Assembly (NCBI GenBank): GCA_030593075.1
Contig: JAUVHW010000001.1
Coordinates: forward strand, 1 to 58,388
Length of the DNA: 58,388 nucleotides
Direction of reading: 5' to 3'
Source of the DNA: Ardenticatenales bacterium
GTDB lineage: Bacteria > Chloroflexota > Anaerolineae > Promineifilales > UBA4811
Shown piece after piece: positions 9,773 to 41,431 of the stretch; position 1 is the first letter of the stretch, and every line of letters starts with the position of its first letter. Below the pieces are notes generated by a model, which worked only from the letters and a program-made list of their open reading frames with translations, was not told the origin of the DNA and searched no databases. Position numbers and translations under genes: made by a program.

Positions 9773-9796
9773 GGTGTTTGCCTTAATGAATGGGCG

Positions 9797-11005: not shown

Positions 11006-11053
11006 GATCTGCTCCCTCGTGGTGGCAATGGGTCGACTGCTGCTCTACTGGCG

Positions 11054-13594: not shown

Positions 13595-14098
13595 TCAGAC
13601 GGCGGGGCGCAGCTGGCGAGCCAGTAATATGACTATCAGCAGAGCGCCAGCGCTCACGACCGCGGCCCACATGCCCAGGCCGCCGGCCGGGAGCTGCCCG
13701 CCGCCGGGACCAATCGTAGGTGTGGGTGGAGGAGCGGTCGGCGATGGCTCTTCGGTCGCTTCAGGTGTTTCCTCGGCGGCGGTCTCCGCCTCTGTAGGGC
13801 GCGGGGAGGGAGTGAAGGTGGGTATCTTGGTCGGCTCGGCGGTTGGGCGAGGGCGGGTAGCTGTGGCCGGTTTGGCCTCCTGGGTCATCGCCATCACTGT
13901 CTGTGTGACCAGATAGTTCGCCGCCTCGATCGTCTGGTTCTGGATCGCGATCGGACTGTTCGCGACGTCTGCTTGCCTCACAAAAAAGATGACGATAAAG
14001 CTAACGATTCCGAGAGCCAGGAAAGCGCCCAGGATCGCGGCCACCGTTCGGAACGTCTTGTCCGAAGCTGCATCCTGCATCACAAAGTCACTTGCCAT
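13595..14098 (-). CDS. small bitopic membrane protein with a Pro/Thr/Glu-rich linker
   Basis: Two hydrophobic helices (AAILGAFLALGIVSFIVIFFV, MWAAVVSAGALLIVILLA) flank PTAEPTKIPTFTPSPRPTEAETAAEETPEATEEPSPTAPPPTPT. It has a strong SD (GGGAGG, 6 nt) and its own promoter. Confidence 0.7.
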   Translation of the reverse strand: MASDFVMQDAASDKTFRTVAAILGAFLALGIVSFIVIFFVRQADVANSPIAIQNQTIEAANYLVTQTVMAMTQEAKPATATRPRPTAEPTKIPTFTPSPRPTEAETAAEETPEATEEPSPTAPPPTPTIGPGGGQLPAGGLGMWAAVVSAGALLIVILLARQLRPAV

Positions 14099-14124: not shown

Positions 14125-14153
14125 ATAATACACGCTAATTGCCTAACGTGCAA
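14125..14153 (-). promoter_or_regulatory. sigma70-like promoter for 13595..14098
   Basis: Minus strand: TTGCAC (14153-14148), 17-nt spacer, TATTAT (14130-14125), about 25 nt upstream of the SD/ATG. Confidence 0.45.
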
Positions 14154-14176: not shown

Positions 14177-15283
14177 TTAGGTCACCAATTCCAGATTCAC
14201 GTTCGGCACAAATGCCACGGTCCCGTCCTCCAGAATCACCTCCGCTCCACGGAACTTGACGCCACTCTCGACGGCGCGAGGCTCATTGCTTATTTCCTTC
14301 ACTCTGCCCACCGCTCCCCAGTAGGGGCTGCGCCTGACGCGCACCGCAAGATTGGCACTCAGCGCTCTCCTTGGCGAGGGCGCAGAGTCGGCAGGCTGAG
14401 ACGCCGGGAGGGGAATAATGATCTCAGGGCGAGACGGCTTCCAGCGATCGGGGAGCACCGCCAGAATGGTGGCCTGTCGTCCCTGGTTCTGCTGCAGCAA
14501 GTCAAAGATGGCAGACGAGATCGGGGCGCGCCCGACCCCTTCGGTAGCGACTACGGGAACTAACTGCTCACAGACTCGTTCCTGCAGCTCGGCAGGAATG
14601 CCGCCGACGATCAGCCCGCGCACTTGAAGCTCTTGCGCTCGGGCCAGCACCTCCTCGTCCAGAACGGCCCCACAAACCAAGATGGTTCCACGGTGAGCGG
14701 CCTGGACCTGCCTGGCGTCTAGCACCACATCGCGCTCTTTCACGCCCGTCGCCAGCACGCCGTAGCCCTCTTTGCCTGACCCCCACACGCCCTGAATCAG
14801 CGCCCCGGGAGTCTCTATCGTCACTCCGTATCCCGGCGCAACCTCTGCCACCGTACCGGAGAGCACAGCGCGCAGCTCGAATGGCTCAGGTTCGAGTTCA
14901 ATGATCACCCGACCACCGTCCGCAGCAATCACCTTTCCATCAACCGGCGATGTCACCTCGCGCACTTGCCGGAATCCACCTTTGTGCCACGCAAGCACGT
15001 CCCCCGGCCGGACACGGTCTCCCGGATTCCTGAGCATACAGCCGCGGGACCGATCGCGCGAGACGTTCAGTTCTTTGGCGACATTCACGATCAAGTATGG
15101 CTGCGGCAGGCTGGCCCGCGCCACGATGTCCCTTGGCTTGACCTGCTGCCCTGTCCTGACCAGCACATCCCCTTGCCTGGGAAGCATCCGCTCCCGTCGA
15201 ACAGTCGTGTGAGCCAAGATGTGCGTCTGATACGGGTAGAATCGGCTGCTCAGACAGGTAGCCCTCCTACGTCCCACAGCCAC
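14177..15283 (-). CDS. hypothetical protein with barrel-sandwich-hybrid-like N-terminal repeats and a KOW/SH3-like C-terminus (last gene of the large operon)
   Basis: Repeated G-D-x-V-x-x-G-x-x-[VL] strands (QGDVLVRTGQQVKPRDIVA, PGDRVRPGDVLAW, SPVDGKVIAADGGRVIIE). The C-terminal GAVGRVKEISNE...GAEVILEDGTVAFVPNVNLELV is KOW-like. An alternative start is ATG at 15187. Confidence 0.7.
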   Translation of the reverse strand: MAVGRRRATCLSSRFYPYQTHILAHTTVRRERMLPRQGDVLVRTGQQVKPRDIVARASLPQPYLIVNVAKELNVSRDRSRGCMLRNPGDRVRPGDVLAWHKGGFRQVREVTSPVDGKVIAADGGRVIIELEPEPFELRAVLSGTVAEVAPGYGVTIETPGALIQGVWGSGKEGYGVLATGVKERDVVLDARQVQAAHRGTILVCGAVLDEEVLARAQELQVRGLIVGGIPAELQERVCEQLVPVVATEGVGRAPISSAIFDLLQQNQGRQATILAVLPDRWKPSRPEIIIPLPASQPADSAPSPRRALSANLAVRVRRSPYWGAVGRVKEISNEPRAVESGVKFRGAEVILEDGTVAFVPNVNLELVT

Positions 15284-16992
15284 TGCCGGGTCTTGGCCCT
15301 GCGCTCAGCGGGGTCGGTAGGAAGTCTCAGCGGCCGGCCGCGCGCGTCGACAATTAGCCCCACTGCCCCGCCAAACACGCTGCGGCGGCAGCTGCGGCCT
15401 GGCCCTTCACCGACGTCGAAGCGTTTGAGCGGGCGCAGCTGCAGCTCCGCGCGATGACCGGGCTGTAGCGGCAGTACCTTGAGTGAGCCCGCTTCTACCT
15501 CCGTCTCCAGCTCGCTGCCGTTCTCGCGGATCATCTTGAGCCGCAGGATCTGCTCGCCTGGCTTTGCCTGGCCGACAGGCGCCACAACGCCACCCAGTTC
15601 GCGAAACGCACCCGACTCTATCACTTGGACCGCTGCCAATGGAACCACACCGGCAACGGCGCCCAAGGCCGGTGCCAGACCGTGTGTGTCCAGGGCCAAC
15701 ATGCAAAGGCCGACTGGCTGCAGGGCGTCCAGTAGCGCCAGGGCAGCCTGCCCCGGTCTGGGAACACTTCCCAACAGCGTGCCACCTAATAGGATCATCT
15801 CAACCGGTGGCAGCGTCCCCGTCGGCGTGGCATCGAAATGGCTCGGGAAGGCGACCGGGAGCGTGGACCGGATCAACTCACGCGCCAGTGCGAGCTCCAG
15901 GTGCAGCTCCTCCGATGTCACGGGAACAGTCTGGGGGAACAGCGCCTTGTTGGCCACAAAGTCCTTCAAGTCGCTGTCCGCCATCTCGTGGGGAAGCCAC
16001 CGCATGACCTGCTGCGAGTCAACCTGCTCCAGGAGTTTGGGCAGATTGTGGCCAATGCCTAGGTCGCTGCGCACCGCCAAATGGGAAATGCCGTTGAGTA
16101 CCGCCCCCATCGTCACGGATGCACTCCCCACGTCCACCCCTACCACGTTGTTTCCCAGGATTGCTCCCAGGTACTGCACTGACCAGCCGAACGCTTTGGC
16201 CGTCGGAATCAGCGCTCCGTTGGCCAGATTCCTGAGTTGCTCTGCCCCTGGCAGCGCGCCGAGCTTGCCCTTTTCGTAGAGCAGATCCAACTCGGCCTGG
16301 GCCGAATCCAGATACTCGGCGTCTACGTCTGGGCGGACGTTCTCTACTGCTCTCAATCCCACACCGCCCAGGATCTCCGCGACCATGGGGCGCAGCACTG
16401 GGTTCCCCGCGTAGATGACTGTCGGCGGGTCGGACCCCTTGTCTTGTAGCGAGATGGCCAGCGAGACCGTCTCTACCAGGTGAATCACGTTGGTCGCTGC
16501 ACCCCCACTGGTTCCGCCAGCTATCAAGAACACGTCCGGCTCTAGGGCGACCAGCTCCTGGACCCTCTCACTGTCTGATCGGCCGTCGGCCGGACTGAAC
16601 TCTTCCTCGATCGTGGTGTAGGTGGAGAGCGCCACCCGCCGGGCACTAGCCAGACTCAACTGGTCCGCGAGCCCCACCAGGACCGTCCTGAGTGGCTGCG
16701 CGGCACTGGTAGTGGCCACAAAACGATCTACGCCCCTTGTGCCCCCCTGGGATGGAATGAGCAGCTGCCCTTGCTCGCCCACAATCTCCCGGCCGGTTGC
16801 GGCTTCTACGTCTGCGACGGCGTTTATCATTCCCACCGTGATGTCAGACAGCGGATGAGCACCCGTGGAAGGAGCCTGCCCGTTGGCGATGAATCGGTAG
16901 CGCCCCTCCACCAAGTCTAGCAGGGCAACGCGTGTAGTGGCGCTGCCGCAGTCGGCTACCAAGACAGATCCTGATGTCTGTCCGTCCGTCAC
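15250..16992 (-). CDS. GlmL/MutL-family (glutamate mutase L-like) ASKHA-fold ATPase-like protein
   Basis: Phosphate-1-like VLVADCGSATTRVALLD. A second-lobe motif GVDVGSASVTMGAV. FLIAGGTSGG and ILLGGTLLG resemble actin/Hsp70-fold adenosine and phosphate-2 motifs. Confidence 0.7.
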   Translation of the reverse strand: MTDGQTSGSVLVADCGSATTRVALLDLVEGRYRFIANGQAPSTGAHPLSDITVGMINAVADVEAATGREIVGEQGQLLIPSQGGTRGVDRFVATTSAAQPLRTVLVGLADQLSLASARRVALSTYTTIEEEFSPADGRSDSERVQELVALEPDVFLIAGGTSGGAATNVIHLVETVSLAISLQDKGSDPPTVIYAGNPVLRPMVAEILGGVGLRAVENVRPDVDAEYLDSAQAELDLLYEKGKLGALPGAEQLRNLANGALIPTAKAFGWSVQYLGAILGNNVVGVDVGSASVTMGAVLNGISHLAVRSDLGIGHNLPKLLEQVDSQQVMRWLPHEMADSDLKDFVANKALFPQTVPVTSEELHLELALARELIRSTLPVAFPSHFDATPTGTLPPVEMILLGGTLLGSVPRPGQAALALLDALQPVGLCMLALDTHGLAPALGAVAGVVPLAAVQVIESGAFRELGGVVAPVGQAKPGEQILRLKMIRENGSELETEVEAGSLKVLPLQPGHRAELQLRPLKRFDVGEGPGRSCRRSVFGGAVGLIVDARGRPLRLPTDPAERRAKTRQWLWDVGGLPV

Positions 16993-16998
16993 CCCTTG

Positions 16999-17727
16999 CT
17001 ATCCGCTGCCCAGCAGGCGCATGATCTCTTGTGGTACTGATTTGATGAATTGCGCGCGCTCGGTCAGGAGCGAAAGGCTGGCGATCAGCGCCCCGGCGAA
17101 GAGCGACCCCAGGGCGACCATCAGAAAGATCTGGCCTATCCAGGCAATCGGGCGTAGCCAAGTTGGTCTATCCACTTGCCCCTCACCAGTGGGCTCAGCA
17201 CCAAAGTGGAAATAGAGCAGAGATGAGATCGTGCCGAGTATCACTACTGCGGCAGCTCCGACGTTGACCAGGTCGCTGTGGTCTGGGAGAAGAGGGTTTC
17301 CTGAGCCAGGAAGCAAGGGCAGGGCAGCGGCGTTCACTTGTGGCATCAGAGTCCCCAGAACCGCGCCACCCACGGCCACGGCTGCGCCTACGCCCATCGC
17401 GAATCCCATCACTACGTTGCCATACGGAGCAGTGCGAGGTGATAGTTTCAACAGCAGCAGGACTGCCAGCAACGCGACCACCGGTTGGACCTGCTCCTCA
17501 ATCCCGAGAGCGGCTCCTGACTGCAGTTGCCTGAAGGGTTCGACGAACTGGGGAATGAGCACCGCATAGACAGTCACGACCACCGCGTATGCCAACCCGA
17601 CACCAACCAGTAGGTGTGCTGTCAGCCGGTACAATGGGTTGTCCCCCGCTAGCACGTAGCTGTAGATCATCAGCGTGAGCACGAGGCCCAGCCCCAAGCC
17701 CAGCGCCTGAACCGCTGGGCTAGCCAT
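16999..17727 (-). CDS. polytopic integral membrane protein, unknown family
   Basis: At least six hydrophobic helices. The ATG lies inside the last codons of the giant gene (8-nt overlap). Confidence 0.8.
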   Translation of the reverse strand: MASPAVQALGLGLGLVLTLMIYSYVLAGDNPLYRLTAHLLVGVGLAYAVVVTVYAVLIPQFVEPFRQLQSGAALGIEEQVQPVVALLAVLLLLKLSPRTAPYGNVVMGFAMGVGAAVAVGGAVLGTLMPQVNAAALPLLPGSGNPLLPDHSDLVNVGAAAVVILGTISSLLYFHFGAEPTGEGQVDRPTWLRPIAWIGQIFLMVALGSLFAGALIASLSLLTERAQFIKSVPQEIMRLLGSG

Positions 17728-20700
17728 GATGCGGTCTCCCGACCAGTCCAGCCACGCTCCCCCAGATTAACCCAATGACGGAGAGCAGTACGGCGACGCC
17801 AATCCCCAACGCCTGGGAGTCATTCAAGCTAGCTGCATTCCCCTGCTGGGGCTGTTCGCCTCCAGCCCCGTACCGAGCCGCACCGGAGACACCAGCTACT
17901 ATTCCTTCCAACTGCCTGGGGTCGTTCTGATAGTATGGAAGGGCCCAGGGTTCGAGGCCGGCGCTCACTCCGGTCACTATCGGCACCGCCTCCATGCCCG
18001 GCAGCCGCCTCGTCTGCTCGATCCACCCCGTCAGGTCGTCGCGCGCGGCAGCGAGAACCAGAACTAGATCTACATCGGCCAGCGTATTGGTGAGCCCGCC
18101 AGCTGCCGGGGCGACTCGAGCCAACCCGCTGCCCAGATAGTCGTTCGCAGGGAACACCTTCCAGGGATTGGCGGCAAAGGCCTGCACGCCAACCGCCCCT
18201 CCCGGAATGTAGCCCAGGTTGAGGTAGTCTTGGCCGTATGCATATCCATAGTCGTCGGCCAGCTCTTGCATCAGGCTCTGGGCGGTCTGAGGGCCGGCTG
18301 GCTTGGTGCTCACCGTCAGAATGCGCGCTCTGCGGTCCATCAGATGGCCCACCATGGTGGAGGAAATGGACCCGAGCTCGCCGGCCGTGGCTGGGGAGTA
18401 CTCAAAGGCAACCAGTGCTAGGGCTTCATCCGGGAGGTTTGCCAACACATCATGGGCTGAGCGAATCTGGTCCGCAATCGCCGGCTGGCCGCTGGCCGTA
18501 GGTAGCGGATTCCCCAGAATGACTGGCAGGAGCACTGCCAGCAACACCACGACGGCGATGACGACCTGCTCAATCCAACCCTGCGGACCGCTGGGCGGCG
18601 ACATTTCCCGTCTGGCTGCTGGACCGGCATGGACAATCTGTTCCAGGACCTGAGCATGACGACGCTCGTGCTCGGTAACGGCCAGCTCCTGTGCCGCTTC
18701 CCTCAAGGGGTGCGCGGGGATAGCTAGGTCGGCCGGCAGCGCCCCTCTCACGCCTACGAGCGGGCCTGCTGGTTCCTCCGGTTCGGGCTCGCCTGCTTCC
18801 GTCTCGTCGGTCTTGAGGGCCTCCAGCCAATCCGGGACCACTGCCTGCGAGAGCTCCAGCCCCTCCTCCGGAGCTAGATCCTCTTCGGCGAGTTCGCCCA
18901 GCCGGGCAGGGGCGCCTGAAGGGCGGAGCCAGTCAACGACCTCTGGCTCGACTGTCGCGTCTGGTTCCGGCTGCAGCCAATCTCGAGCCTCTGTCTCTCG
19001 GACGTCCGCTGGTTGCAGCCGTGGAGCCTGGGTGCTCACATCCGGACGCGGCGCGCTGGACTCCTGGGATGATTTCCAGACAGCAGATGCATCGGGTTCT
19101 GGCTGTCTAGCCACGTAGGGAGCCAGCAAGGCGTCCGCCGCCGGCGGGGAATCTCCACCGCCCTCTTGCTCAGCGAGCCACTCCGCGAATTCGGCTGCCG
19201 CGGATGAGTCGCTGTCCCCGGCAAGCCAATCTGGTAGCTCTGGAGGGACCAGCCCGTCTGTCGCCTTCCGCTTCTCGCTCGGGGTCGGCTCCTTAGCGGG
19301 CGGCGGTGCGATTGTGTCAAGCCAGTCTGATAGGGCCTCCGCCTCCGCTGGGGTGGGAGATGGTGCGCGGGACTCCTCGGCCGCCGGCTGGGACGTGAGC
19401 TGCACACGGTCGGCGCCCGTGTCGCTGGGTGGTAGGAGGTCCAGCAGTGCACGGTCCGGCATCTCCAGCGTACCGTCGTCGGGAGTGACCTCCTGGAGCC
19501 AATCCGCGAGCTTGTCGAACTCTGACACCTCCTCCCCGGCCGGTGGTCCAACCTCATCCAGTCTCTCTTGGACAGCTTCGGTGGGCCGCGCTTCCTCGAA
19601 CCGTTCAGGAAGCTCTTCGAGCCCGATGACCGCCCCGGTGGACGGCGGCAGGAGGTCTTCCGGTCTTTCCAGGACGGCTTCGCTGGGCCCCCCTTCACCG
19701 AACTGTTCAGGAAGCTCTTCCAGCCCGATGACTGCCCCGGTGGACGGTGCCCCAGGTGCCTGGGAGATTGCCGGTTGCGGTGCGAATTCCCTCAGCCAAT
19801 CCGGCACCTCGCCAGGCTCTATCTCGGCTTCGGTGGCTGAGGGCGCCCAGCCTGCCGGGGCTTGCAGGCTTTCCTCTTCGGGAGCAACTTGGTCGACCCA
19901 ATCCAGCAACTGACCGGTGTCAATGTCGCCTCTACCTACTCCAAAAAGTGGTGATATCTGTGATTCTACCCCGCCGGAAGGTGGGGGTGGCGCGGCCGGC
20001 TCACCTCCGGCATCAAGGGCAGGCGTCTCGGGAGCGGATTTCCGGGGAGCAAACTCGGCCAGCCAGTCTGGCACTGTTCCGGGTTCGATCTGGCCATCCT
20101 GGGCGGGCGCTGCGAGGTCCGGTGGCCCTTGCTGCTCATCATCGGTGGGAGCGACTTGGTCCACCCAAGCTATTATCTCGCCGGTGTCGATGTCGCCTCT
20201 GCCTACCCCAAACAGCGGCGGTATATCGGGCTGGGCCGGTTGAACTCCCTCTGGCGCCTCACTAGGTGCGATTTGGGCATCCGGAACAGGCGCTGCGGAG
20301 GTGATGCCGCGGGGCGCGAATTCCTCCAGCCAACTTGGCAGTTCGGCGGGGGGCAACTCGTCGCCGGCTGGGATCGTCAGGCCCTCTGGCGCTTCTGGCA
20401 TGCCTTCCTCGGGCGAGACCTGCTCCACCCAAGCCAGCAACTCACTGGTATCGACCTCTCCTCTACCTACTCCGTTGAGGGGCTCGACCTCTGCCACAAC
20501 TTGCTCGAGTGGTTCCTGCGTCCCTGTCGGCTCATCCTCGACCTCGGCGGCCGGGGGTTCCTCGGAGACGGCCTCTCCGGGTGCTAGGGCCGCGAGCCAG
20601 TCGGGCCCCTCGCCCGGTTCAGCAACGCCTTCCGCAGCTTGTGGAGGCACCGCCTCCTTTGCTGGTTCCAGTGTCCTGGCGGGCTCGGCCGGCACTTGGG

Positions 20701-23700
20701 CGACCGCAGGTGCTCCGACAGCTTCCGCAGGGCCAACCTCCTCCGCTGCGTCGGTGGCGGCCTGCCGGGGCGCGAACTCTTCCAGCCAGTCCGGTATTGC
20801 GCCGGGGGCCAGCCCGTCGTCGCCGGCCGCGATCGCCATGCCCTCTGGCATTTCTGCCATGTCCGCCTGGGGCCCGGCTTGGTCTACCCAAGCTATCATC
20901 TCGCCGGTGTCGACCTCTCCTCTGCCTACTCCGATGAGGGGCTCGACCTCTGCCACAACTTGCTCGAGTCGTTCCTGCGTCCCCGTCGGCTCCGCCTCGA
21001 CCTCGGCGGCCGGGGGTTCATCGGAGACGGCCTGTCCGGGTGCTAGCGCTGCGAGCCAATCTGGCACCTCGCCTGGCGCTACCACGCCCTCAAGCTCTAC
21101 GGCCGTCGGCTCCTTGGGGACGGCTTGTCCAGGCGCCAGCGCCGTGAGCCAATCTGGGACCTCGCCCGCTTCAGCGACACCTTCGGCAGCTGGCATCGTC
21201 AGGTCGGCCGGAGCCTCTGCGATGCCCTCCTGTGGTGCAATCTCGTCCACAAAGGCGCGCGGTTCGCTGGTGAGAACTCTGCCCTTACCTGGCTCAAGGG
21301 GAGATGGCTTCTCGGGTTCGACTTGGTCGAGTTCCACGAACGCCTCAGTGACTTCGGCCTCCGGCACTGGAGCCGTAAGGTCCTCCAGCGCCTGCAGTGT
21401 GTCCTCCTGTGGCGCGATTTCATCGACCCAGGCGCGCAGTTCGCCGGTGACGAGTCTGCCTGCGCCGAATTCGGGGGGAGTGGGCATCTCCTGCCCTGGC
21501 TGTTCGAGTGGCGGTGCTTCAGCCAGTTCGGGCGCAGCCTCGCTGGCCGCAGGCTCGCCGGCGGCTGCCGGACCTGCAGCCTGCTTGATGGGTTCTGGCG
21601 CCTCAGGGGCGGCCTCCCGGGGCGCGAAGCCCTCCAGCCAGTCTGGCAGTTCGCCCGGCTCGATCTCAACAGCCTCAGCTCCAATAGCCAGACCCTCTGG
21701 CATCTCTGTCACGACATCCTGGGGCTCTGCTTGGTCCACCCACGCCAGTAGCTCGGTGGTGTCGATCTCTCCTCTGCCTACTCCAATAAGGGGCTCGACC
21801 TCTGGTGCAGTTTCCTCGGCAGGTTCCTCCGCCCCCGTCGGCTCAGGCTCGGCCTCCACAGCTGGGGGCTCTTCGGAGACAGCCTGTCCGGGTGCGAGGG
21901 CCGCAAGCCAGTCGGGCACCTCGCCCGGTTCAGCACTCGGTTCAGCAACGGCTTCGGCAGCATCCTCAGGCGCCTCCTCCGCTGGCTGTAGGGCCTCAGG
22001 GGGCTCAACCTCGGCTTCGGCGGCCGCAAGGACCTGGGCTTCAGGAGGCGCCTCCTCCTCCGCAGAGACAGCCTGCCCGGGTCCGAGAGCCGCAAGCCAA
22101 TCGGGCACCTCTCCCGGTGCAGCAACGGCTTCGGCAGCTTCTGGAGCCGCCTCCTCCACTGGCTGCAGGGCCTCAGGGGGTTCAGCCTCCGCTTCGGCGG
22201 CGGCAGGTGCTTTGACATCTTCCGGCTGGGCAACCTGCTCCGCCGGTTCCGCCGCCTCAGGGGCGGCCGGGCGGGGCGCAGAGTCCTCCAGCCAGTCTGG
22301 CAGCTGGGCGGGTTCAGCCCCGGCCTCGTCGACCGCGATAGCCAAGCCATCTGGTAGCTCTGTCACCTCCTCCTTAGGCCCGACTTGGTCCACCCATGCC
22401 AGCAGTTCGCCGGTGTCGATCTCTCCTTTGCCTACTCCGCTGAGGGGCTGGACCTCTGGTGTAGTTTCCTCAGCAGGTTCCTGCGTCCCCGTCGGCTCAG
22501 GCTCGGCCTCTACAGCTGGGGGCTCCTCGGAGACAGCCTGTCCGGGTGCGAGGGCCGCGAGCCAGTCGGGTATCTCTCCCGGTTCAGCAACGGCTTCGGC
22601 AGCTTCTGGAGCCGCCTCCTCCGCTGGCTGCAGGGCCTCAGGGGGTTCAGCCTCCACTTCGGCGGCGGCAGGTGCTTTGACATCTTCCGGCTGGGCAACC
22701 TGCTCCGCCGGTTCCGCCGCCTCAGGGGCGGCCGGGCGGGGCGCATAGTCCTCCAGCCAATGTGGCAGCTCGCCGGGCTCGATCTCAACCTGCTCGGCTT
22801 CGATGGCTAAAACCTCTGGTGTCTCTGTCAGGTCACGTTGGGGCCCGACTTGGTCCACCCATGCCAGCAGTTCGTCGGTGTCGATCTCTCCTCTGCCTAC
22901 TCCGCTGAGGGGCCCGACCTCTGGTGTAGTTTCCTCAGCAGGTTCCTGCGCCGCCGTCGGCTCAGGCTCGGCCTCTACAGCTGGCGGCTCCTCGGAGACA
23001 GCCTGTCCGGGTGCGAGGGCCGCGAGCCAGTCGGGCACCTCGCCCGGTTCGGTGACAGCTTCGGCGACTTCTGAAGGTACCACGTCCTTTGCCGGTTCCA
23101 GGGCCCCAGGGGGCTCAACCTCCACCTCGGCGGCAGGCTCGGCCTCCGCTTCGACAACTGCAGCCTTCTCGACCGGCTCAGGGGCTTCGGCGCGCCGGTC
23201 CTCTGCCTCGGTAGATTCTCGAGGGGCAGCCTGCTCCATCTGTTCCGCCGCCTCGGCGAGGCCGGTCTCTACCTCGACGGCGACCTCCCCCTCGGCCTCC
23301 GCTTTGGCGGCTTCTGGAGCAGCAATCCCCTCTGCAGGTTGCGGGACCTCAGATGGTTCGGCTCTAGCCTCGACAGCGGGTTCCGCTGACTCGGTAGGGA
23401 CGGCGTGCCGGCGCATTATCTCGCCGAGCCAGCCTGTCTTCCCTTTGGGCTTGACCCTGATCTCGGTGACTTGCTCCTCTGGCCCGGCAGTGGGGGGCTT
23501 GGCTTCCTCGGTGGATACACCGTGCCGACGGACGATGTCGTTGAGCCAGCCTGTCTGTCCCGGGGGCACCGCCCGGACTCCAACCTCATCAGGTTTCTCG
23601 TCTGTCTCCTCCGAGCTTGGCTCAGGCTCCTCGGGGATACCGTGCTGGCGGACGATGTCGCCAAGCCAGTCCGTCTGTCCTGGGGGCGCCGCCCGGACTC

Positions 23701-26377: not shown

Positions 26378-26380
26378 GGG

Positions 26381-28429
26381 CTAGAACTCCCGCGCGCTCC
26401 CGGCTTCGTCGGGACCGGCGTCTGCAAGGGGGGCCGGCACTTCCGGCGCAGCTCTGTTGGGTCTTAGTTTGTCGAGCCAGGAGGGCAGACCACCAGTGTC
26501 GGCTGCGGGCTCCTCCGCCGCTGCTTGATCGAGCCACTCCATTAACATTCCCGTCTTGGCTGCGGCCGCCGGACTCATAGGCTCAGTTTCCTGGGGCGGC
26601 GCCATTTCTTGGATCCAGTCGGGTACCTCGCCGCGTTCTACTGTGGCGCCCCCCGCTGCTGCCTGCTCAACCCATCCGCGCAGTTCTCCAGTCTCGACCT
26701 CGTCCTGGCGCGGTGCGATTTGGTCGAGCCATCCAGTGAGTTCACCGGTCTCGACCTTGCCCTTATGCACCTCGGGCGCTGGAGGCTGTGGCTTGACATC
26801 AACGGCCGGCTCGGGTTCTTCCGTGACCGGAATCTCCAGGTGCGCCGGGGAACCGAGATCAGCTTCGTGGGGCGCGACTTCGTTGATCCACGAGCGCAGT
26901 TCGCCGGCGGGGATTCTGGCCTTGCCTGTGTCCGCCGAGGGTGGGGTCTTCTTGGAAGGTTCCTGCAGCCACTGAGGTGGTTCCTTGTCGCTCTCTGCTT
27001 CTCGTTGGGGCGGTCCCCCCTCCCGTGCAGCCTGTAGGTCGGGCGCGAGACTGACCTGCCACCTGGGCACCTCGTCCTGGGTGCCTGCCCTAGCAGGCTC
27101 CTCTGACGCTGCTTCCTCGAGCCACTCCATTGACATGTCGGTCTTGGCTGCGGCCGCCTCAGTCGGAGGCTCGGACCTGGCCGCCGGCGCTATTTCTTGG
27201 ATCCAGTCGGGTACCAAGCCGGGTTCAAGTGCGGGGTCCCCCAAAGCCGCCGAGCTGTCGGGCGCGCCCTTCTCAACCCACTCGCGCAGTTCTCCGGTCG
27301 CAACTCTGTCCTGGCGCGGTGCGATTTGGTCGAGCCATCCAGTGAGTTCGCCGGTCTCGACCCTGCCCTTGTGTACCTCGGCGGGTGGAGGCGGCGGCTT
27401 GACGTCCACTGCCGGCTTGGGTTGTTCGGCGACTGGAATCGCCAGGTTTGCCGGGAGATCGAGCTCAGCCTCGGTTAGTGCAACCTCGTCGATCCATGAC
27501 TGTGATTCGCCGGTGCTGATTCTGCTCTGGCGTGTGTCCGCTGAGGGTAGCGCCTCCTGGGAAGGCTCTTGCAGCCACTGAGGTGGTCCCTGCTCGCTGT
27601 CTGCTTCTCGTTGGGGCGGTCCGCCTTCGTTTGCAGAATCCAGATCGGGTGGCAGATCGGCCCGCCCCCTGTGCGCCTCGCCCTGGACGCCTGCCGGTGC
27701 AGGCTCCTCCACCGCGGGTTCATTGAGCCACTTCCTTAGCCCGCTGGTCTTGACCGCTGCATCTCCCGCCGCGGGATCGGATGTCGCCGGCGATGCCACT
27801 TCCTGGAGCCAACCGGGTACCTCCTCGGATTCGGGGGCGGTGTCCCCGCATGCCGCCGAGCTGTCGGGCGCGCCCTTCTCAACCCACTCGCGCAGTTCTC
27901 CGGTCGAGACTCTGTCCTGGCGCGGTGCGACTTCGTCGAGCCATCCAGTGAGTTCGCCGGTCTCGAGCTTGCCCTTGCGGACCTCGGCGGGTGAGGGACT
28001 CGCTTCCGCTGGCGCTGACGGCCCTGACATTTCACGGAGCCGGCGAATTGTGTCCTCGTCGGCCAGGGGGCCCGTTGTCCACGGCGTCGGCGTGGGCGTT
28101 CCTGGAGCTGCCAAGCTGGCCTCAGTCAGGCCTGGCTGCAGCTGGGCCAGCCAGTCGGGTATGTCGCCATCAGGCGTGGCTTCTTTACTAGGCAGAGAGA
28201 GGCCGCGAACCGAACTCTCTTGGGCTTCCTCGCCTGGAGCCGGGCCAGGTCCAGCTATTGAGATCATCCTGGCGCCGCAGTCATCACAGAAGACGTTATT
28301 GAATGGGTTCATGGCGCCGCATTTGGGGCATCGTCCTGTCGTGTCAGGGGTCAACTTCTGGCCGCAGGAGGGGCAGAACCTGTTGCCGTCGCTGACGGGG
28401 TTTGCGCACTTGGGGCAGCGTTGCGCCAT
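26381..28429 (-). CDS. 682-aa paralog of the giant protein: double zinc ribbon plus three Trp-motif super-repeats, no membrane module
   Basis: 48 of the first 60 residues are identical to the giant protein by manual alignment (MAQRCPKCA.P.S.G.RFC.SCG.KL.PDT.GRCP.CGAMNPF.NVFCD.CGARM). The rest is KGK(L/V)ETGELTGWLD..APRQD.V.TGELR.WVE..., VPDWIQE and PPQWLQEP. Confidence 0.9.
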   Translation of the reverse strand: MAQRCPKCANPVSDGNRFCPSCGQKLTPDTTGRCPKCGAMNPFNNVFCDDCGARMISIAGPGPAPGEEAQESSVRGLSLPSKEATPDGDIPDWLAQLQPGLTEASLAAPGTPTPTPWTTGPLADEDTIRRLREMSGPSAPAEASPSPAEVRKGKLETGELTGWLDEVAPRQDRVSTGELREWVEKGAPDSSAACGDTAPESEEVPGWLQEVASPATSDPAAGDAAVKTSGLRKWLNEPAVEEPAPAGVQGEAHRGRADLPPDLDSANEGGPPQREADSEQGPPQWLQEPSQEALPSADTRQSRISTGESQSWIDEVALTEAELDLPANLAIPVAEQPKPAVDVKPPPPPAEVHKGRVETGELTGWLDQIAPRQDRVATGELREWVEKGAPDSSAALGDPALEPGLVPDWIQEIAPAARSEPPTEAAAAKTDMSMEWLEEAASEEPARAGTQDEVPRWQVSLAPDLQAAREGGPPQREAESDKEPPQWLQEPSKKTPPSADTGKARIPAGELRSWINEVAPHEADLGSPAHLEIPVTEEPEPAVDVKPQPPAPEVHKGKVETGELTGWLDQIAPRQDEVETGELRGWVEQAAAGGATVERGEVPDWIQEMAPPQETEPMSPAAAAKTGMLMEWLDQAAAEEPAADTGGLPSWLDKLRPNRAAPEVPAPLADAGPDEAGSAREF
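26600..28000 (-). repeat. three ~605-bp (about 200-codon) tandem repeats inside the 682-aa ORF
   Basis: The K-G-[KR]-[LV]-E-T-G-E-L-T-G-W-L-D coding block recurs near 26750, 27355 and 27965. One copy of the same block occurs in the giant gene near 25470. Confidence 0.75.
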
Positions 28430-28432
28430 GGG

Positions 28433-29056
28433 TTATAGATCCCGCTCGCTGTGCGGCTGGTCAATCCCAACCAACACCCGTATGCCGGCTGCAATGGTGC
28501 CCAGTGCGACGCCCAGCAGCATACCCCGGGCTCCGGCCGCGGAAAAGACGTGGACCAGCCAGCAACGCACGTCGCCCGCTACCTGGGCCACCTCACCGGG
28601 CAGTGGCAGCGCAGCCAGGAGAACGAGGATGATGGTACCCACGAAAACAGAGGTGGGAAGCGAAGGTCGTTTTCGCATAGCGCGGAACGCGGCCGAGACC
28701 AGAAAAACGGCGAGCAGCGAGGCTGTCGCTGCCTCCAGCGGTGCCAGCACGAAACGAAACACCCAAGTAACACCCGCTCCGCTTGGCCCTTGGTGTTCAG
28801 CAGCGGCAACTGCTATCACAACTACAAACGAAAAGAGGAGGGCGGTGCTGTAGGGCCAGTCTCGTTCTTGGCTTACAATGCGGCGCCCGTGAACGACCAG
28901 CAAGTTGACGACGCCCAACACAAACGCCGCGGCCGCCAACGCGGCCGCCCAACGGACGAAGAGAAGATGGACCCGGAATCCCGGGCCGACGAAATACCCG
29001 AGCAGCGTTGCCCCGCCTGACGCGACGGCAACCACTGTGGGGACACGCTGCCTCAC
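28433..29056 (-). CDS. polytopic integral membrane protein, unknown family
   Basis: Five to six hydrophobic helices. Only 3 nt separate it from the downstream zinc-ribbon gene. Confidence 0.8.
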   Translation of the reverse strand: MRQRVPTVVAVASGGATLLGYFVGPGFRVHLLFVRWAAALAAAAFVLGVVNLLVVHGRRIVSQERDWPYSTALLFSFVVVIAVAAAEHQGPSGAGVTWVFRFVLAPLEAATASLLAVFLVSAAFRAMRKRPSLPTSVFVGTIILVLLAALPLPGEVAQVAGDVRCWLVHVFSAAGARGMLLGVALGTIAAGIRVLVGIDQPHSERDL

Positions 29057-29069
29057 AACTTGCTCCTGC

Positions 29070-29822
29070 CTAGAACAGCGACACTCCCAACGTGCGCAGC
29101 AGCGCGGCCACCAGGATCAGCGCCACGACGCCGAACCGCACTGCATCTTGTGCTTGCAGACTCGCCAGCAGGGCGGGCTTTCGGCTTAGGTAGGCCGGCA
29201 CTGCATACACCTCTTCTCCTATCAGCGGCGCGTCGGAAACTGCGAAAAGCATGGCCATAGCCTGCGGGTCGTCGGTGCCTGCTATTTGCGTGATGCCGCT
29301 CTGTGCGGCGGGGTGAGCCAGCAGCAAGGCCTCAGGGCCAAAAGAGCCAATCATCACGTTGACGGCTGTTTCCTCCGGCCGCATGTGGGTCGAAGCGCCC
29401 AACGCGTAGATGGTCGGTTGTGGGGCTACCATCTCGACCTGTGCGGAATCGAACTCGTGCAGTAGGTCGCTGTGGGCACAAGCCTGGCGTAAGCTGTCTT
29501 GTGCCGCTGCCATCACCAGCGGATCGGCGGCCGTTACCAGCGGCGGTGCACCAGCCGAGCATGCTTGCTTCCCCACATGGTCTAGCGCAGCGAGCCCCGC
29601 CAGTGTCGTCGCTGTCGTCGAGTCGGTGAGGGCGCCTGTTCCCAGCGAGACGTGTATTCTCTTTCCTGTCTCCACCGCCCCACCCACCACGTAGGGCAGG
29701 TTGTCGAGCGCCTGGATGCGACGCACGTGGACCTGGTGGCCTTCTTTGATCCTCTGCGCGAGAAAGAGGATCAGTGCTAGCATCGAAAGGACCGCAAATG
29801 CACCCAATATCAGAGTAGCCAC
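29070..29822 (-). CDS. bitopic membrane protein (N- and C-terminal TM helices flanking a ~190-aa domain), unknown family
   Basis: TLILGAFAVLSMLALILFLA at the N-terminus and FGVVALILVAALLRTLGV at the C-terminus. The GTG start overlaps the upstream stop (TAGTG). Confidence 0.8.
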   Translation of the reverse strand: MATLILGAFAVLSMLALILFLAQRIKEGHQVHVRRIQALDNLPYVVGGAVETGKRIHVSLGTGALTDSTTATTLAGLAALDHVGKQACSAGAPPLVTAADPLVMAAAQDSLRQACAHSDLLHEFDSAQVEMVAPQPTIYALGASTHMRPEETAVNVMIGSFGPEALLLAHPAAQSGITQIAGTDDPQAMAMLFAVSDAPLIGEEVYAVPAYLSRKPALLASLQAQDAVRFGVVALILVAALLRTLGVSLF

Positions 29823-30073
29823 TAGCGCTCATCCAATCGTGTTTGGAGCAGATCTAGCGCCTCGGGTTGCTCCAGCAGGCGCGCGTATTCGCTGACCTGA
29901 TCGGCGCCGGCGATCAGGCTGAGCGCCGGTTGGGCTACCCAAAGCAGCTGGCCGCCAATCAGCGCAAGGGGACGCGCAGCATCCAGAAGGGTGCTGGTCA
30001 CGCCAGCGACACCCCACCGGCGGACGCGTTCCACAATCTGGTCCACCAACTCTATCTGCCGGCTCTCGTCCAT
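29822..30073 (-). CDS. small (83-aa) hypothetical protein, first gene of the large operon
   Basis: ATG at 30073 (codon 41 of ORF 29822..30193). The longer ORF would start upstream of the predicted -35/-10 elements (30152-30180), so the shorter form is preferred. It contains a hydrophobic stretch, LALIGGQLLWVAQPALSLIAGA. Confidence 0.55.
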   Translation of the reverse strand: MDESRQIELVDQIVERVRRWGVAGVTSTLLDAARPLALIGGQLLWVAQPALSLIAGADQVSEYARLLEQPEALDLLQTRLDER

Positions 30074-30151
30074 TGTCGTGTCAGTCCAGTCGGCGGGCAG
30101 CTGCTGCTGCCCGCCGTGCACACCTACCGTTGACCTTGGACTGATGCTAGT

Positions 30152-30180
30152 ATTGTAATCTGTCTGAGAACAGCGGTCAA
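30152..30180 (-). promoter_or_regulatory. near-consensus sigma70-type promoter of the 16-kb minus-strand operon
   Basis: Minus strand: TTGACC (30180-30175), 17-nt spacer, TACAAT (30157-30152), in the only AT-rich island of this region. Confidence 0.5.
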
Positions 30181-30217
30181 ACGAGCGGTCCAACTTGACG
30201 TAACACAGTATATCATG

Positions 30218-30246
30218 TTTACCTGGGCGTGTAAAGCAAGTATAAT
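30218..30246 (+). promoter_or_regulatory. divergent sigma70-type promoter for 30295..32022
   Basis: TTTACC (30218-30223), 17-nt spacer, TATAAT (30241-30246), about 50 nt upstream of the ATG at 30295. Confidence 0.45.
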
Positions 30247-35842: not shown

Positions 35843-35909
35843 GGACGCATCTCCATCCGGCTCAGACGTGCTGTGGCAAGACCTTCAGCTGCGGCTACTT
35901 CAGCTGCGG

Positions 35910-37202: not shown

Positions 37203-37253
37203 GGCTAGGGGTTCCTCTGTAGTGGGTGAACTGGAGTCGCGGGCGTGTGGGGT

Positions 37254-41422: not shown

Positions 41423-41431
41423 CTGGGCCTC

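What the first reader, a model, noticed from the sequence alone, without database searches (positions are those of the whole stretch)
14177..30180. A 16-kb, nine-gene operon of membrane proteins, zinc-ribbon repeat giants and an ASKHA-fold protein with no recognisable system identity
Seen directly:
- Nine minus-strand ORFs run from a near-consensus promoter (TTGACC-17-TACAAT, 30180-30152) to the stop at 14177.
- The junctions suggest translational coupling: TAGTG overlap at 29822, gaps of 13, 3, 3 and 6 nt, an 8-nt overlap at 17720-17727 and an overlap at 15250-15283.
- An independent promoter for the next gene follows at 14125-14153, which delimits the unit.
- Gene order is: 83-aa protein; TM-domain-TM protein; polytopic membrane protein; 682-aa zinc-ribbon repeat protein; 2885-aa zinc-ribbon repeat protein with its own TM-loop-TM end; polytopic membrane protein; GlmL/MutL-family ASKHA-fold protein; barrel-sandwich/KOW-like protein.

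None of this matches a secretion, motility, division or defence system that I can name.

Inference: a membrane-embedded complex carries an enormous multivalent cytoplasmic tether or scaffold, possibly remodelled by the actin/Hsp70-fold protein.
Basis: partly seen in the sequence, partly recalled or inferred. Interest (0 to 1): 0.85.

Follow-up and report, generated by a model that had tools for sequence, protein, structure and literature searches.

The report
Uncharacterised envelope-spanning gene cluster of Anaerolineae
This is a real nine-gene operon of unknown function, kept in the same order in hundreds of filamentous Anaerolineae species; its central protein is a membrane-anchored, acidic, disordered chain carrying tens of copies of one short tryptophan motif, and nothing described so far resembles the set.

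Summary

1. Only eight ORFs lie in 14177-30180. The ninth conserved gene (13595-14098) lies just outside, so the proposed boundary is wrong.
2. The "giants" are not zinc-ribbon repeats. Each has one N-terminal double zinc ribbon followed by an acidic Pro/Ala-rich disordered region. That region carries a repeated motif, consensus E-L-P-D-W-L-x-x-L. The 2885-aa protein ends in TM, an alpha/beta domain, and a second TM.
3. The 2885-aa size and the 682-aa paralogue are peculiar to this genome. Orthologues are 600-1233 aa and single-copy.

The same gene order recurs in at least 534 GTDB species, and all of the best 80 are Anaerolineae-type genomes. Pfam, NCBIfam, PADLOC, PDB profile searches and Foldseek on two confident models found only generic domains: DUF6754, a divergent GlmL/MutL-type ASKHA protein, and a barrel-sandwich plus KOW protein. 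No paper mentions the cluster.

The ninth protein carries a sortase-type LPxTG signal, which suggests a link to the cell wall.

My best reading is inferred, not shown. A membrane complex displays a multivalent motif array that concentrates a cytoplasmic partner, probably the operon's own ASKHA ATPase and its partner protein, and is tied to the wall.

The parts
30152..30180 (-). Promoter-like site TTGACC-17-TACAAT upstream of g1
   Evidence: Found by the scan with 10 of 12 matches. Both hexamers are invariant in L004, L006 and L007 while the surrounding DNA diverges.
30207..30235 (-). Second promoter-like site, TTTACA-17-TATACT with an extended TG, inside a conserved block that also holds a plus-strand site for the divergent Helicase_C_3 gene
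   Evidence: This is the invariant block at alignment columns 59-111.
29822..30073 (-). g1: 83-aa protein with a moderately hydrophobic conserved core (PLxFxGSQLLWLAQPAL)
   Evidence: ORF. Orthologue found in 46 of 57 loci. No Pfam, NCBIfam or PDB match.
29070..29822 (-). g2: DUF6754 protein, arranged TM, a domain of about 200 aa, then TM. The positive-inside rule puts the domain in the cytoplasm.
   Evidence: PF20539 at 7.6e-45. Two TM segments. Present in 53 of 57 loci. No PDB relative.
28433..29056 (-). g3: 207-aa polytopic membrane protein with about 6 TM segments, an orphan family
   Evidence: Present in 53 of 57 loci. Not homologous to g6.
26381..28429 (-). g4: 682-aa paralogue of the N-terminal part of g5, with a double zinc ribbon and 20 Trp sites. 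It lacks the TM end and is specific to this lineage.
   Evidence: DZR at 1.1e-10. BLASTP against g5 gives 3e-87, with the first ~130 aa about 80% identical. No intact second copy appears in 80 other loci.
26213..26377 (-). g5 residues 1-55: double zinc ribbon, taken to be cytoplasmic
   Evidence: PF12773 at 1.1e-9. An N-terminal zinc ribbon, single or double, is present in 56 of 62 orthologues.
18713..26212 (-). g5 residues 56-2555: acidic Pro/Ala-rich disordered region with 51 Trp sites of the type E-[LV]-P-D-W-[LV]-x-x-[LIV]-A-P. It includes 465-nt and 120-nt tandem repeats.
   Evidence: Composition is 22% D+E and 5% K+R. The relaxed pattern [DE][IVL]P.[FYW]L occurs 257 times in 57 orthologues against 0.8 expected.
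17720..18712 (-). g5 residues 2556-2885: conserved GPLxGLRGxLP juxtamembrane motif, TM, a Rossmann-like alpha/beta domain taken to be extracytoplasmic, TM, and a basic tail
   Evidence: AF2 mean pLDDT is 82.7, with the core above 93. Foldseek finds only generic Rossmann folds at E of 0.01 or higher. No Pfam or PDB sequence match. Present in 53 of 57 loci.
16999..17727 (-). g6: 242-aa polytopic membrane protein with about 6 TM segments, an orphan family with an invariant SYLxGDNPLYR motif
   Evidence: Present in 53 of 57 loci.
15250..16992 (-). g7: divergent GlmL/MutL-type ASKHA-fold protein with an extra conserved C-terminal domain of about 120 aa (GLIVDARGRP...WLWDxGG)
   Evidence: PF13941 at 216 bits. 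It scores far below the GlmL equivalog cut-offs. Invariant DxGxT and DVGS motifs. No PDB sequence relative.
14177..15283 (-). g8: soluble three-domain protein made of a barrel-sandwich hybrid, an alpha/beta middle domain and a KOW domain. The start codon is uncertain: GTG 15283 or 15277, or the public call at ATG 15187.
   Evidence: AF2 mean pLDDT 92.7. KOW match at E about 1e-6. RnfC_N is precomputed on orthologues. No full-length fold match. Present in 71 of 72 loci.
   Evidence: C-termini of 72 orthologues. TIGR01167 matches 4 of 25. Present in 66 of 72 loci. It stays with g7-g8 in split loci.
12095..13450 (-). Possibly associated regulator: AAA-type NTPase fused to an OmpR-type winged-helix domain
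   Evidence: This family lies directly downstream of g9 on the same strand in 24 loci. A hybrid histidine kinase takes that place in 30 loci.

Best explanation
**Shown**
- This is a conserved nine-gene unit of the class Anaerolineae with two modules.
- Module A (g1, g2, g3, g5, g6) is a set of membrane proteins. Its centrepiece, g5, reads: N-terminal zinc ribbon, a long acidic disordered region with 10-50 copies of an E-L-P-D-W-L-x-x-L motif, TM, an alpha/beta domain, TM.
- Module B (g7, g8, g9) is a GlmL/MutL-type ASKHA protein with conserved nucleotide-binding motifs, a barrel-sandwich/KOW protein, and a bitopic protein. The bitopic protein has a Pro/Thr-rich external stalk that ends in a sortase-type LPxTG signal.

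**Inferred**
- The membrane proteins form one complex.
- The disordered region hangs into the cytoplasm as a multivalent docking array. Each motif would form a short amphipathic helix that binds a pocket on a soluble partner.
- The partner is most likely the operon's own ASKHA protein and/or g8, so many copies would be concentrated, or assembled into a polymer, at the membrane.
- ATP turnover by the ASKHA protein would cycle binding.
- g9, once linked to peptidoglycan by sortase, would tie the assembly to the cell wall.

The biological process served is not known. Candidates are septum or filament integrity, and envelope maintenance.
For: **Co-conservation and fixed order**
- At least 534 GTDB species carry the cluster. 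Component counts are 46-53 of 57, 71/72 and 66/72.
- Junctions are tight or overlapping.
- The promoter is conserved.

**The motif**
- In 37 other orthologues there are 617 Trp sites. P is at -2 in 69%, D at -1 in 64%, and L at +1 in 78%. Background frequencies are 13%, 10% and 10%.
- The relaxed pattern occurs 257 times against 0.8 expected.
- The motif survives while the rest of the region varies in length (121-873 aa) and sequence.
- In this window the motif occurs only in g4 and g5.

**Topology**
- Hydropathy and positive-inside counts place the g5 alpha/beta domain outside.
- A zinc ribbon with no signal peptide places the N-terminus and the array in the cytoplasm.

**The other components**
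- g7 keeps invariant DxGxT and DVGS motifs.
- g7-g8-g9 stay together where the cluster is split.
- g9 has LPxTG, then TM, then a basic tail in nearly all of 72 orthologues.
- Sortase genes exist in these genomes and lie next to the cluster in L064 and L085.

**Precedents for actin-fold proteins binding short peptides or acidic repeat proteins** (my own knowledge)
- FtsA binds the FtsZ C-terminal peptide.
- PilM binds the PilN N-terminus.
- ParM binds ParR.
- MamK works with MamJ.
Against: - No interaction was tested.
- GlmL/hydantoinase-type ASKHA proteins are not known to polymerise or to bind peptides.
- Disorder is inferred from composition and variability only.
- The window's own g9 has LPAGG rather than LPxTG.
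- The membrane proteins could equally be a transporter.
- Distribution outside Anaerolineae was not assessed.
Confidence: 0.4

Rival explanations
1. It is a divisome or cytoskeleton tether. g5 would be a membrane anchor that reaches into the cytoplasm through its long linker. Its distal zinc ribbon would bind FtsZ or another filament. Its ELPDWL motifs would mimic the FtsZ conserved C-terminal peptide and engage FtsA/SepF-type receptors, or the FtsA-like ASKHA protein g7. The system would then organise septation in multicellular filaments.
For: - The motif shares the acidic, aliphatic, Pro, x, aromatic, Leu pattern of the FtsZ C-terminal peptide, whose consensus is D/E-I/V-P-X-F/Y-L-R/K (bioRxiv 10.1101/2023.08.29.555414). 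The relaxed pattern gives 257 matches against 0.8 expected.
- Haloarchaeal CdpC has the architecture membrane anchor, 243-aa disordered linker, zinc ribbon. Its zinc ribbon binds FtsZ1 (bioRxiv 10.64898/2026.07.16.738847).
- The cluster is conserved across a class of filamentous bacteria.
Against: - None of the sites matches the canonical peptide. The aromatic residue is always Trp and there is no following basic residue.
- No division gene lies in the window or in 85 loci. No tubulin signature was found, and the window's other genes are metabolic.
- CdpC is an analogue only, with no detected homology.
- g7 belongs to the GlmL branch, not the FtsA branch, of the ASKHA fold.
Confidence: 0.2
2. 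It is an envelope-stress or membrane-maintenance platform working with the neighbouring PspA/IM30 module and the adjacent regulator.
For: - A regulator lies directly downstream of g9 on the same strand: a hybrid histidine kinase in 30 loci and an AAA-wHTH protein in 24.
- PspA lies within 10 kb in 21 of 53 loci with enough flank. It was found in 24 loci overall, 19 of them also carrying a 278-aa coiled-coil membrane protein.
- This holds in lineages whose MutL proteins are only 40% identical.
Against: - PspA is absent from the neighbourhood in more than half of the loci.
- The large survey of PspA contexts does not report this partner (PMC11237479).
- No Psp partner domain (PspB/C, LiaI/F, Toastrack) was detected.
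- The regulators may serve PspA only.
Confidence: 0.15
3. It is a transporter or ion-translocating complex. g2, g3, g6 and the g5 C-terminus would form a permease. g8 would be an Rnf/Nqr-like peripheral cap, and g7 would energise or regulate the complex.
For: - There are two 6-TM proteins and two TM-domain-TM proteins.
- The g8 N-terminal domain matches RnfC_N and NqrA_N weakly.
Against: - No transporter family matched g3 or g6 in Pfam, NCBIfam or PDB profile searches.
- No redox cofactor motifs are present.
- This reading does not explain the motif array or the LPxTG protein.
- Foldseek alignments of g8 to NqrA and RnfC have TM-scores of 0.15 or lower.
Confidence: 0.08
4. It is a surface-motility or adhesion machine comparable to the Myxococcus Agl-Glt focal-adhesion complex. 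In that system a zinc-ribbon protein (GltJ) and cytoplasmic scaffolds couple a motor to the envelope.
For: - 19 of 25 g9 orthologues give weak hits to the GltJ model, the best at 1.9e-6.
- g5 has an N-terminal zinc ribbon and a TM segment, as GltJ does (my knowledge of GltJ).
- g9 provides a link to the wall.
Against: - The GltJ hits cover only the TM and Pro-rich stretch and reach about 18-30 bits against a cut-off of 450.
- No MotA/TolQ/ExbB-type motor and no other Glt or Agl component was found.
- As far as I know, the cultured Anaerolineae are described as non-motile.
Confidence: 0.05
5. g7 is a genuine GlmL, an accessory protein or reactivase of a B12-dependent mutase as NCBI annotates it ('glutamate mutase L'), and the neighbours are unrelated.
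For: Pfam MutL match. NCBI names on orthologues.
Against: - g7 scores 85-89 bits against equivalog cut-offs of 475-600.
- No glmE, glmS or other mutase gene lies in the window or in related loci.
- g7 has an extra C-terminal domain.
- It is invariably embedded in this membrane-protein cluster.
Confidence: 0.02

Closest known systems
GlmL/MutL family (PF13941), the hydantoinase-A branch of the ASKHA fold
   Same: g7 aligns to the whole Pfam model (residues 10-459, 216 bits) and keeps the phosphate-binding DxGxT-type motifs.
   Different: - It scores below every NCBIfam GlmL or ornithine-degradation cut-off.
- It has no mutase neighbours.
- It carries an extra conserved C-terminal domain of 120 aa.
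- It is always encoded with membrane proteins.
Haloarchaeal CdpC (FtsZ1 membrane anchor; bioRxiv 10.64898/2026.07.16.738847)
   Same: Both have a membrane attachment at one end, a very long disordered linker, and a zinc ribbon at the other end.
   Different: - No sequence relationship was detected.
- CdpC binds the membrane through an amphipathic helix, whereas g5 uses two TM helices plus an external domain.
- No repeated motif is described for the CdpC linker in the passages read.
- CdpC is archaeal.
- A division role for g5 is untested.
FtsZ conserved C-terminal peptide and its receptors (FtsA, ZipA, SepF)
   Same: The g5 motif [DE]-[LIV]-P-x-W-L has the same pattern of acidic, aliphatic, Pro, any, aromatic, Leu. 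FtsA, a receptor of the peptide, is an actin-fold protein, as is g7.
   Different: - The aromatic residue is always Trp.
- There is no trailing Arg or Lys.
- The motif is present in tens of copies inside a membrane protein rather than once at the end of a tubulin homologue.
MamJ-MamK, and tandem-WH2 or DPF/DPW scaffold proteins (analogy from my own knowledge)
   Same: An acidic repetitive or multi-motif disordered protein links a membrane structure to, or gathers many copies of, an actin-fold or adaptor protein.
   Different: There is no homology, and binding here is hypothetical.
LPXTG sortase substrates (TIGR01167)
   Same: g9 orthologues end in [LIVP]-P-x-T-G, then a hydrophobic helix, then ARRLR. 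A sortase gene lies near the cluster in L064 and L085.
   Different: - g9 also keeps an N-terminal TM anchor with a conserved cytoplasmic acidic tail (NRTF), so it would bridge membrane and wall rather than be a free surface protein.
- Only 4 of 25 orthologues reach E < 0.01 on the model.
- The window's copy reads LPAGG.
RnfC/NqrA N-terminal barrel-sandwich domain and NusG/Spt5 KOW domain
   Same: g8 has both domain types. KOW matches at E about 1e-6 with a TM-score of 0.8 to Spt5 KOW5. RnfC_N is recorded on orthologues.
   Different: No solved structure has this combination, and there is no full-length Foldseek match. The conserved biotin/lipoyl lysine is absent. No Rnf or Nqr membrane subunits are present.

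Membership tests
GlmL (methylaspartate mutase accessory protein) / GlmL-related Or-4 | Score above the NCBIfam equivalog cut-off (475 / 600 bits; TIGR01319 subfamily 204 bits) | tested here: not met
   Scores are 84.9, 89.1 and 60.1 bits.
GlmL (methylaspartate mutase accessory protein) / GlmL-related Or-4 | Encoded next to the B12-dependent mutase subunits (glmE/glmS, or the ornithine aminomutase genes) | tested here: not met
   No such genes occur in the window or in the neighbourhoods of L001, L002 and L004.
Pfam MutL (PF13941) superfamily, ASKHA fold | Full-length match above the gathering score | tested here: met
   216.6 bits against a cut-off of 27, covering residues 10-459 of the protein and 1-447 of the 450-position model.
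DUF6754 (PF20539) | Full-length match above the gathering score | tested here: met
   153.5 bits against a cut-off of 27. The family has no described function, and no paper mentions it.
Double zinc ribbon (PF12773) | Two CxxC...CxxC ribbons, with a match above the gathering score | tested here: met
   g4 scores 41.9 bits and g5 38.7 bits against 27.3. The match covers residues 5-52 only, so the proteins are not built of zinc-ribbon repeats.
LPXTG sortase substrate | C-terminal LPxTG, then a hydrophobic helix, then a basic tail | tested here: inconclusive
   The tripartite signal is visible in nearly all of 72 orthologues. However, only 4 of 25 hit TIGR01167, and the window's copy has LPAGG.
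LPXTG sortase substrate | Cleavage and wall attachment by a sortase | not testable with these tools
   A sortase gene (PF04203, 1.2e-32) lies 2.6 kb upstream of the cluster in L064, with a similar ORF in L085. This shows only that the enzyme exists in the clade.
FtsZ-anchoring division proteins (FtsA/ZipA/SepF/CdpC type) | Binding to FtsZ, or septal localisation | not testable with these tools
   Only a motif resemblance and an architectural analogy are available.
FtsZ conserved C-terminal peptide | Consensus D/E-I/V-P-X-F/Y-L-R/K | tested here: not met
   There are 0 strict matches in 57 orthologues, against 257 matches to the relaxed pattern with Trp and no basic residue.
Agl-Glt gliding machinery (GltJ) | Score above the NF033761 cut-off (450 bits) and presence of the other Glt/Agl components | tested here: not met
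   g9 scores 18 bits over a Pro-rich/TM stretch only. No other component was detected.
Rnf/Nqr complexes | RnfC/NqrA full architecture plus the RnfD/A/E or NqrB/D/E membrane subunits | tested here: not met
   Only the N-terminal barrel-sandwich domain matches weakly. Foldseek TM-scores to NqrA and RnfC are 0.15 or lower. g3 and g6 hit nothing.
Known or candidate anti-phage defence systems (PADLOC) | Any component matching a PADLOC model | tested here: not met
   There are no hits for g1-g8. The only hits are weak low-complexity or P-loop matches for g9 and the downstream regulator.
Psp envelope-stress system | PspA with PspB/C, LiaI/F, Toastrack or other described partners in one operon | tested here: inconclusive
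   PspA is a neighbour in 21 of 53 loci with enough flank, and in 24 loci overall. No described partner domain occurs in g1-g9, and the context is not reported in PMC11237479.

The most novel reading that the evidence does not exclude
The cluster encodes a previously unknown bacterial cytoskeleton-like or mechanical coupling system. A membrane-anchored array of tens of ELPDWL motifs would nucleate or bundle polymers of a GlmL-type ASKHA ATPase under the membrane. A sortase-anchored stalk protein would connect this layer to the peptidoglycan. The system would organise septa or filament integrity in multicellular Anaerolineae. It would be a bacterial counterpart of tandem-motif actin nucleators and of MamJ/MamK.
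Probability: 0.15. Interest if true: 0.9.

Novelty: categorically new. Interest (0 to 1): 0.72.

Why it matters
Anaerolineae are among the most abundant filamentous bacteria in sediments, soils, and anaerobic and activated sludge. Almost nothing is known of their cell biology, and as far as I know no genetic system exists for them.

This nine-gene, envelope-spanning cluster is kept in order across at least 534 species. Its g8 family alone has 3556 clusters at 50% identity in metagenomes. It is therefore likely to serve a core, clade-defining function.

The cluster offers three concrete handles:
- a short linear motif repeated tens of times, which is rare in bacteria and directly testable by peptide binding;
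- an ASKHA ATPase of a branch so far linked only to B12-enzyme accessory roles, which shows that the NCBI name 'glutamate mutase L' on these proteins is a mis-transfer;
- a membrane-to-wall bridging protein.

Working out the function could reveal a new way of organising the cell envelope or septum in monoderm multicellular bacteria.

Tried and rejected
**Library and structure searches that gave nothing**
- Rfam and tRNA scans of the window found nothing.
- Literature searches for DUF6754, PF13941, 'PDWL', 'glutamate mutase L' with Chloroflexi, and Anaerolineae with actin-like found nothing relevant.
- PDB profile searches for g1, g2, g3, the g5 C-terminus, g6, g7 and the g7 C-terminal domain gave no significant hits.
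- Foldseek against the PDB gave only domain-level or generic Rossmann matches for g8 (pLDDT 92.7) and the g5 C-terminal module (pLDDT 82.7).
- PADLOC gave nothing.

**Ideas tested and dropped**
- The two TM-domain-TM proteins (g2 and the g5 C-terminus) being paralogues: hhalign aligned only the TM helix, probability 4%.
- g3 and g6 being paralogues: hhalign probability 0.2%.
- g4/g5 as an assembly artefact or a split gene. g4 has its own complete zinc ribbon and start, and is only 41-80% identical to g5. The tandem repeats are 87-90% identical, so they are not collapsed copies.
- An FtsZ gene in any fetched locus, to compare its C-terminal peptide: none was present.

**Things I could not do**
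Alignments had to be rebuilt from database hits.
- The word-indexed search found only 16 homologues of the g5 C-terminus, so that model rests on a shallow alignment.
- I could not see beyond the best 80 genomes, so I cannot say whether the cluster exists outside Anaerolineae.

Full report
**1. What is in the sequence**

One search lists these minus-strand ORFs:

| Gene | Coordinates |
|---|---|
| g1 | 29822-30193 (83 aa from ATG 30073) |
| g2 | 29070-29822 |
| g3 | 28433-29056 |
| g4 | 26381-28429 |
| g5 | 17720-26377 |
| g6 | 16999-17727 |
| g7 | 15250-16992 |
| g8 | 14177-15283 |

- That makes eight ORFs, not nine.
- TTGACC-17-TACAAT is at 30180-30152, and a second site, TTTACA-17-TATACT, is at 30235-30207.
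- Both sites are invariant in three relatives (L004, L006, L007) whose surrounding intergenic DNA has diverged. This phylogenetic footprint supports them as real promoters.
- No minus-strand terminator-like site lies between g1 and the gene after g8. Overall counts are near chance, 14 against 9.1 +/- 3.0.

**2. Products**

- Pfam gives DUF6754 for g2 (7.6e-45), a double zinc ribbon for residues 5-52 of g4 and g5, and MutL PF13941 for g7 (7.4e-64). It gives only weak barrel-sandwich hits for g8, and nothing for g1, g3 and g6.
- NCBIfam places g7 far below the GlmL, Or-4 and TIGR01319 cut-offs: 85, 89 and 60 bits against 475, 600 and 204.
- Hydropathy gives two TM segments in g2, in the g5 C-terminus and in g9, and about six each in g3 and g6.
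- g8 has a KOW domain (PDB profile E about 1e-6 to Spt5/NusG/uL24) and a barrel-sandwich domain. Its AF2 model is confident, with mean pLDDT 92.7. It has no full-length structural neighbour in the PDB, only KOW, BCCP-like, DUF2118 and a swivel-like domain.
- The last 330 residues of g5 model as TM, Rossmann-like alpha/beta domain, TM, with the core at pLDDT above 93. Fold matches are generic, at E of 0.01 or higher.

**3. The 'giants'**

- They are not zinc-ribbon repeats. After the N-terminal ribbon, g5 is 22% Asp+Glu, 5% Lys+Arg, 15% Pro and 17% Ala. It contains 51 Trp sites with a common context.
- In 37 other orthologues, 617 Trp sites give the consensus E(-4) L(-3) P(-2, 69%) D(-1, 64%) W L(+1, 78%) x x L(+4, 42%) x P(+6, 29%). 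Background frequencies are 10-13%.
- The median is 18 sites per protein, spaced about 31 residues apart.
- The relaxed pattern [DE][IVL]P.[FYW]L occurs 257 times in 57 orthologues, against 0.8 expected from shuffling.
- The rest of the region varies freely in sequence and in length (121-873 aa). This is the behaviour of a disordered region carrying a short linear motif.
- In the window the motif occurs only in g4 and g5.
- g4 is a diverged tandem copy of the first ~400 residues of g5, with its own zinc ribbon and no TM end.
- No other locus has an intact second copy, and g5 elsewhere is 600-1233 aa. Both the 2885-aa size and the duplication are therefore local expansions, made partly of 465-nt and 120-nt tandem repeats at 87-90% identity.
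- An N-terminal zinc ribbon, single or double, is present in 56 of 62 orthologues.

**4. Comparative evidence**

- A scan of one genome per GTDB species with the g7 alignment found at least 534 species with a relative. The best 80 are all Anaerolineae-type MAGs: Anaerolineales, Thermoflexales, Ardenticatenaceae, Promineifilaceae and Leptofilum.
- HMMs of each component found the same order everywhere. Among loci with enough flank the counts are as follows.

| Component | Loci with it / loci with enough flank |
|---|---|
| g2, g3, g5 C-terminus, g6 | 53/57 |
| g1 | 46/57 |
| g8 | 71/72 |
| next gene, g9 (13595-14098 here) | 66/72 |

- In four Thermoflexales loci, g7-g8-g9 stand alone with unrelated genes upstream. 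This defines two modules and ties g9 to g7-g8.
It may be an internal promoter, but it does not end the functional unit.
- The g8 family has 3556 clusters at 50% identity in metagenome space.

**5. The ninth gene**

- g9 orthologues share an acidic N-tail ending in NRTF, a TM segment, a Pro/Thr-rich stretch, and a C-terminus of [LIVP]-P-x-T-G, a hydrophobic helix and ARRLR. That is a sortase-type sorting signal.
- Four of 25 orthologues hit TIGR01167. Weak GltJ hits cover only the TM and Pro-rich part.
- The window's copy reads LPAGG.
- A sortase gene (PF04203, 1.2e-32) lies 2.6 kb upstream of the cluster in L064, with a similar ORF in L085.
- If processed, g9 would bridge the membrane and the peptidoglycan.

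**6. Neighbourhood**

- Directly downstream of g9 on the same strand lies either a hybrid histidine kinase (30 loci) or an AAA-wHTH regulator (24 loci, including the window; 10 loci have both).
- PspA is found in 24 loci, 19 of them also carrying a 278-aa coiled-coil membrane protein. Of the 53 loci with enough downstream flank, 21 have PspA within 10 kb.
- This hints at a link to envelope homeostasis, but the association is not universal. The large PspA context survey does not report it (PMC11237479).
- The rest of the window is ordinary metabolism.

**7. How it most likely works**

Shown:
- a conserved two-module set of membrane proteins, with domains predicted on both sides of the membrane;
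- a cytoplasmic ASKHA protein with intact nucleotide-binding motifs;
- a soluble barrel-sandwich/KOW protein;
- a probable wall-anchored stalk;
- a repeated motif array.

Inferred:
- The array is cytoplasmic. The zinc ribbon and the lack of a signal peptide point that way, and the positive-inside rule places the g5 alpha/beta domain outside.
- Each motif docks a soluble partner, which would give high-avidity recruitment at the membrane.
- The partner is g7 and/or g8.

The last step is by analogy. Actin-fold proteins bind short peptides or acidic repeat proteins: FtsA binds the FtsZ tail, PilM binds PilN, ParM binds ParR, and MamK works with MamJ (my own knowledge).

The motif resembles the FtsZ C-terminal peptide consensus D/E-I/V-P-X-F/Y-L-R/K, but it never matches it strictly. 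The architecture of membrane anchor, long linker and zinc ribbon recalls haloarchaeal CdpC, whose zinc ribbon binds FtsZ1. A division or tether role is therefore the main rival.

**8. Comparison with known systems and novelty**

- Every membership test against a named system failed or was inconclusive. These were GlmL proper, Rnf/Nqr, Agl-Glt, Psp partners, defence systems and the canonical FtsZ peptide.
- Only generic domain families are met: PF13941, DUF6754, DZR and KOW.
- No paper in the library mentions DUF6754, PF13941 or this cluster.
- I therefore rate the cluster as lying outside all known kinds of system. Function is unknown, and distribution outside Anaerolineae was not examined.

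**9. Verdict**

- Interest is 0.72. This is a class-wide, abundant and wholly uncharacterised envelope system with an unusual, directly testable multivalent motif array. No mechanism has been demonstrated.

Noticed in passing
window 30081-30144 (minus strand): The presumed 5' leader of the operon folds into a strong hairpin with a perfect 10-bp GC-rich stem (GGCGGGCAGC/GCUGCCCGCC, 30092-30115). MFE is -37.4 kcal/mol and the z-score is -4.07. It has no T-run, and its sequence is not conserved in L004, L006 or L007.
   Followed up: partly
window 30207-30246: A block of about 55 nt is invariant among four genomes. It holds overlapping divergent promoter-like sites: minus-strand TTTACA-17-TATACT, and plus-strand TTTACC-17-TATAAT for the Helicase_C_3 gene at 30295-32022. 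This suggests shared regulation of the two divergent units.
   Followed up: partly
window 7073-13450; L001 13879-19439; L004 13488-19601: Downstream of g9 there is a recurrent second module. It consists of a regulator (AAA-wHTH, or a hybrid histidine kinase with two receiver domains), PspA/IM30, an SBP-like/VWA or TPR membrane protein, and a 278-aa coiled-coil membrane protein with no Pfam match. PspA and the 278-aa protein co-occur in 19 loci.
   Followed up: partly
L064 2993-4000 (minus); L085 2183-3262 (minus): In L064 a sortase gene (PF04203, 1.2e-32; active-site motif LTLISC...R) lies about 2.6 kb upstream of the cluster. L085 has an ORF with the same motif at the corresponding place. This is relevant to the LPxTG-like end of g9.
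   Followed up: partly
L014, L023, L052, L057 (Thermoflexales): Here g7-g8-g9 occur without g1-g6 upstream. An M42 peptidase, a NUDIX protein, an acyl-CoA dehydrogenase and a histidine kinase lie there instead. I could not check whether g1-g6 sit elsewhere in those genomes.
   Followed up: no
window 15187-15283: Public gene calls start g8 at ATG 15187 (336 aa). However, the residues encoded upstream (RFYPYQTHILAHTTVRRER) are conserved in orthologues and form confident beta-strands in the AF2 model. The true start is probably GTG 15283 or 15277, or an unusual codon near 15253 behind a GGAGG at 15263-15267.
   Followed up: partly
L006 6261-9276; L007 6205-9253: In the two closest relatives, both long-read MAGs, the g5 orthologue is split into a zinc-ribbon ORF and a C-terminal ORF in another frame. 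This could be a frameshift from sequencing error or a genuine split reminiscent of g4/g5.
   Followed up: no
window 14700-14780 (g8 residues ~165-195): The g8 profile gives an unexpectedly good local hit (E 3.3e-7 over 27 residues) to the CW_7 cell-wall-binding repeat of the Cpl-7 lysozyme (PDB 5i8l, 4cvd). In the AF2 model this stretch is beta-strand rather than the helical CW_7 fold I recall, so the hit is probably spurious. It remains unexplained.
   Followed up: no
window 20000-28000: There is a strong negative AT skew (-0.24 to -0.33) and many long antisense ORFs (up to 815 aa on the plus strand) across g4/g5. These are by-products of the Glu/Ala/Pro-rich repeat coding sequence, not genes.
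   Followed up: partly
window 34436-47161: This is an ordinary metabolic neighbourhood. It holds an FAD-linked oxidase with a CCG/Fe-S protein, LarA-like and Ldh_2 genes, and a biotin-dependent carboxylase set (biotin carboxylase, two carboxyltransferases, BCCP and an oxaloacetate-decarboxylase-alpha-like protein). It is unrelated to the finding.
   Followed up: no
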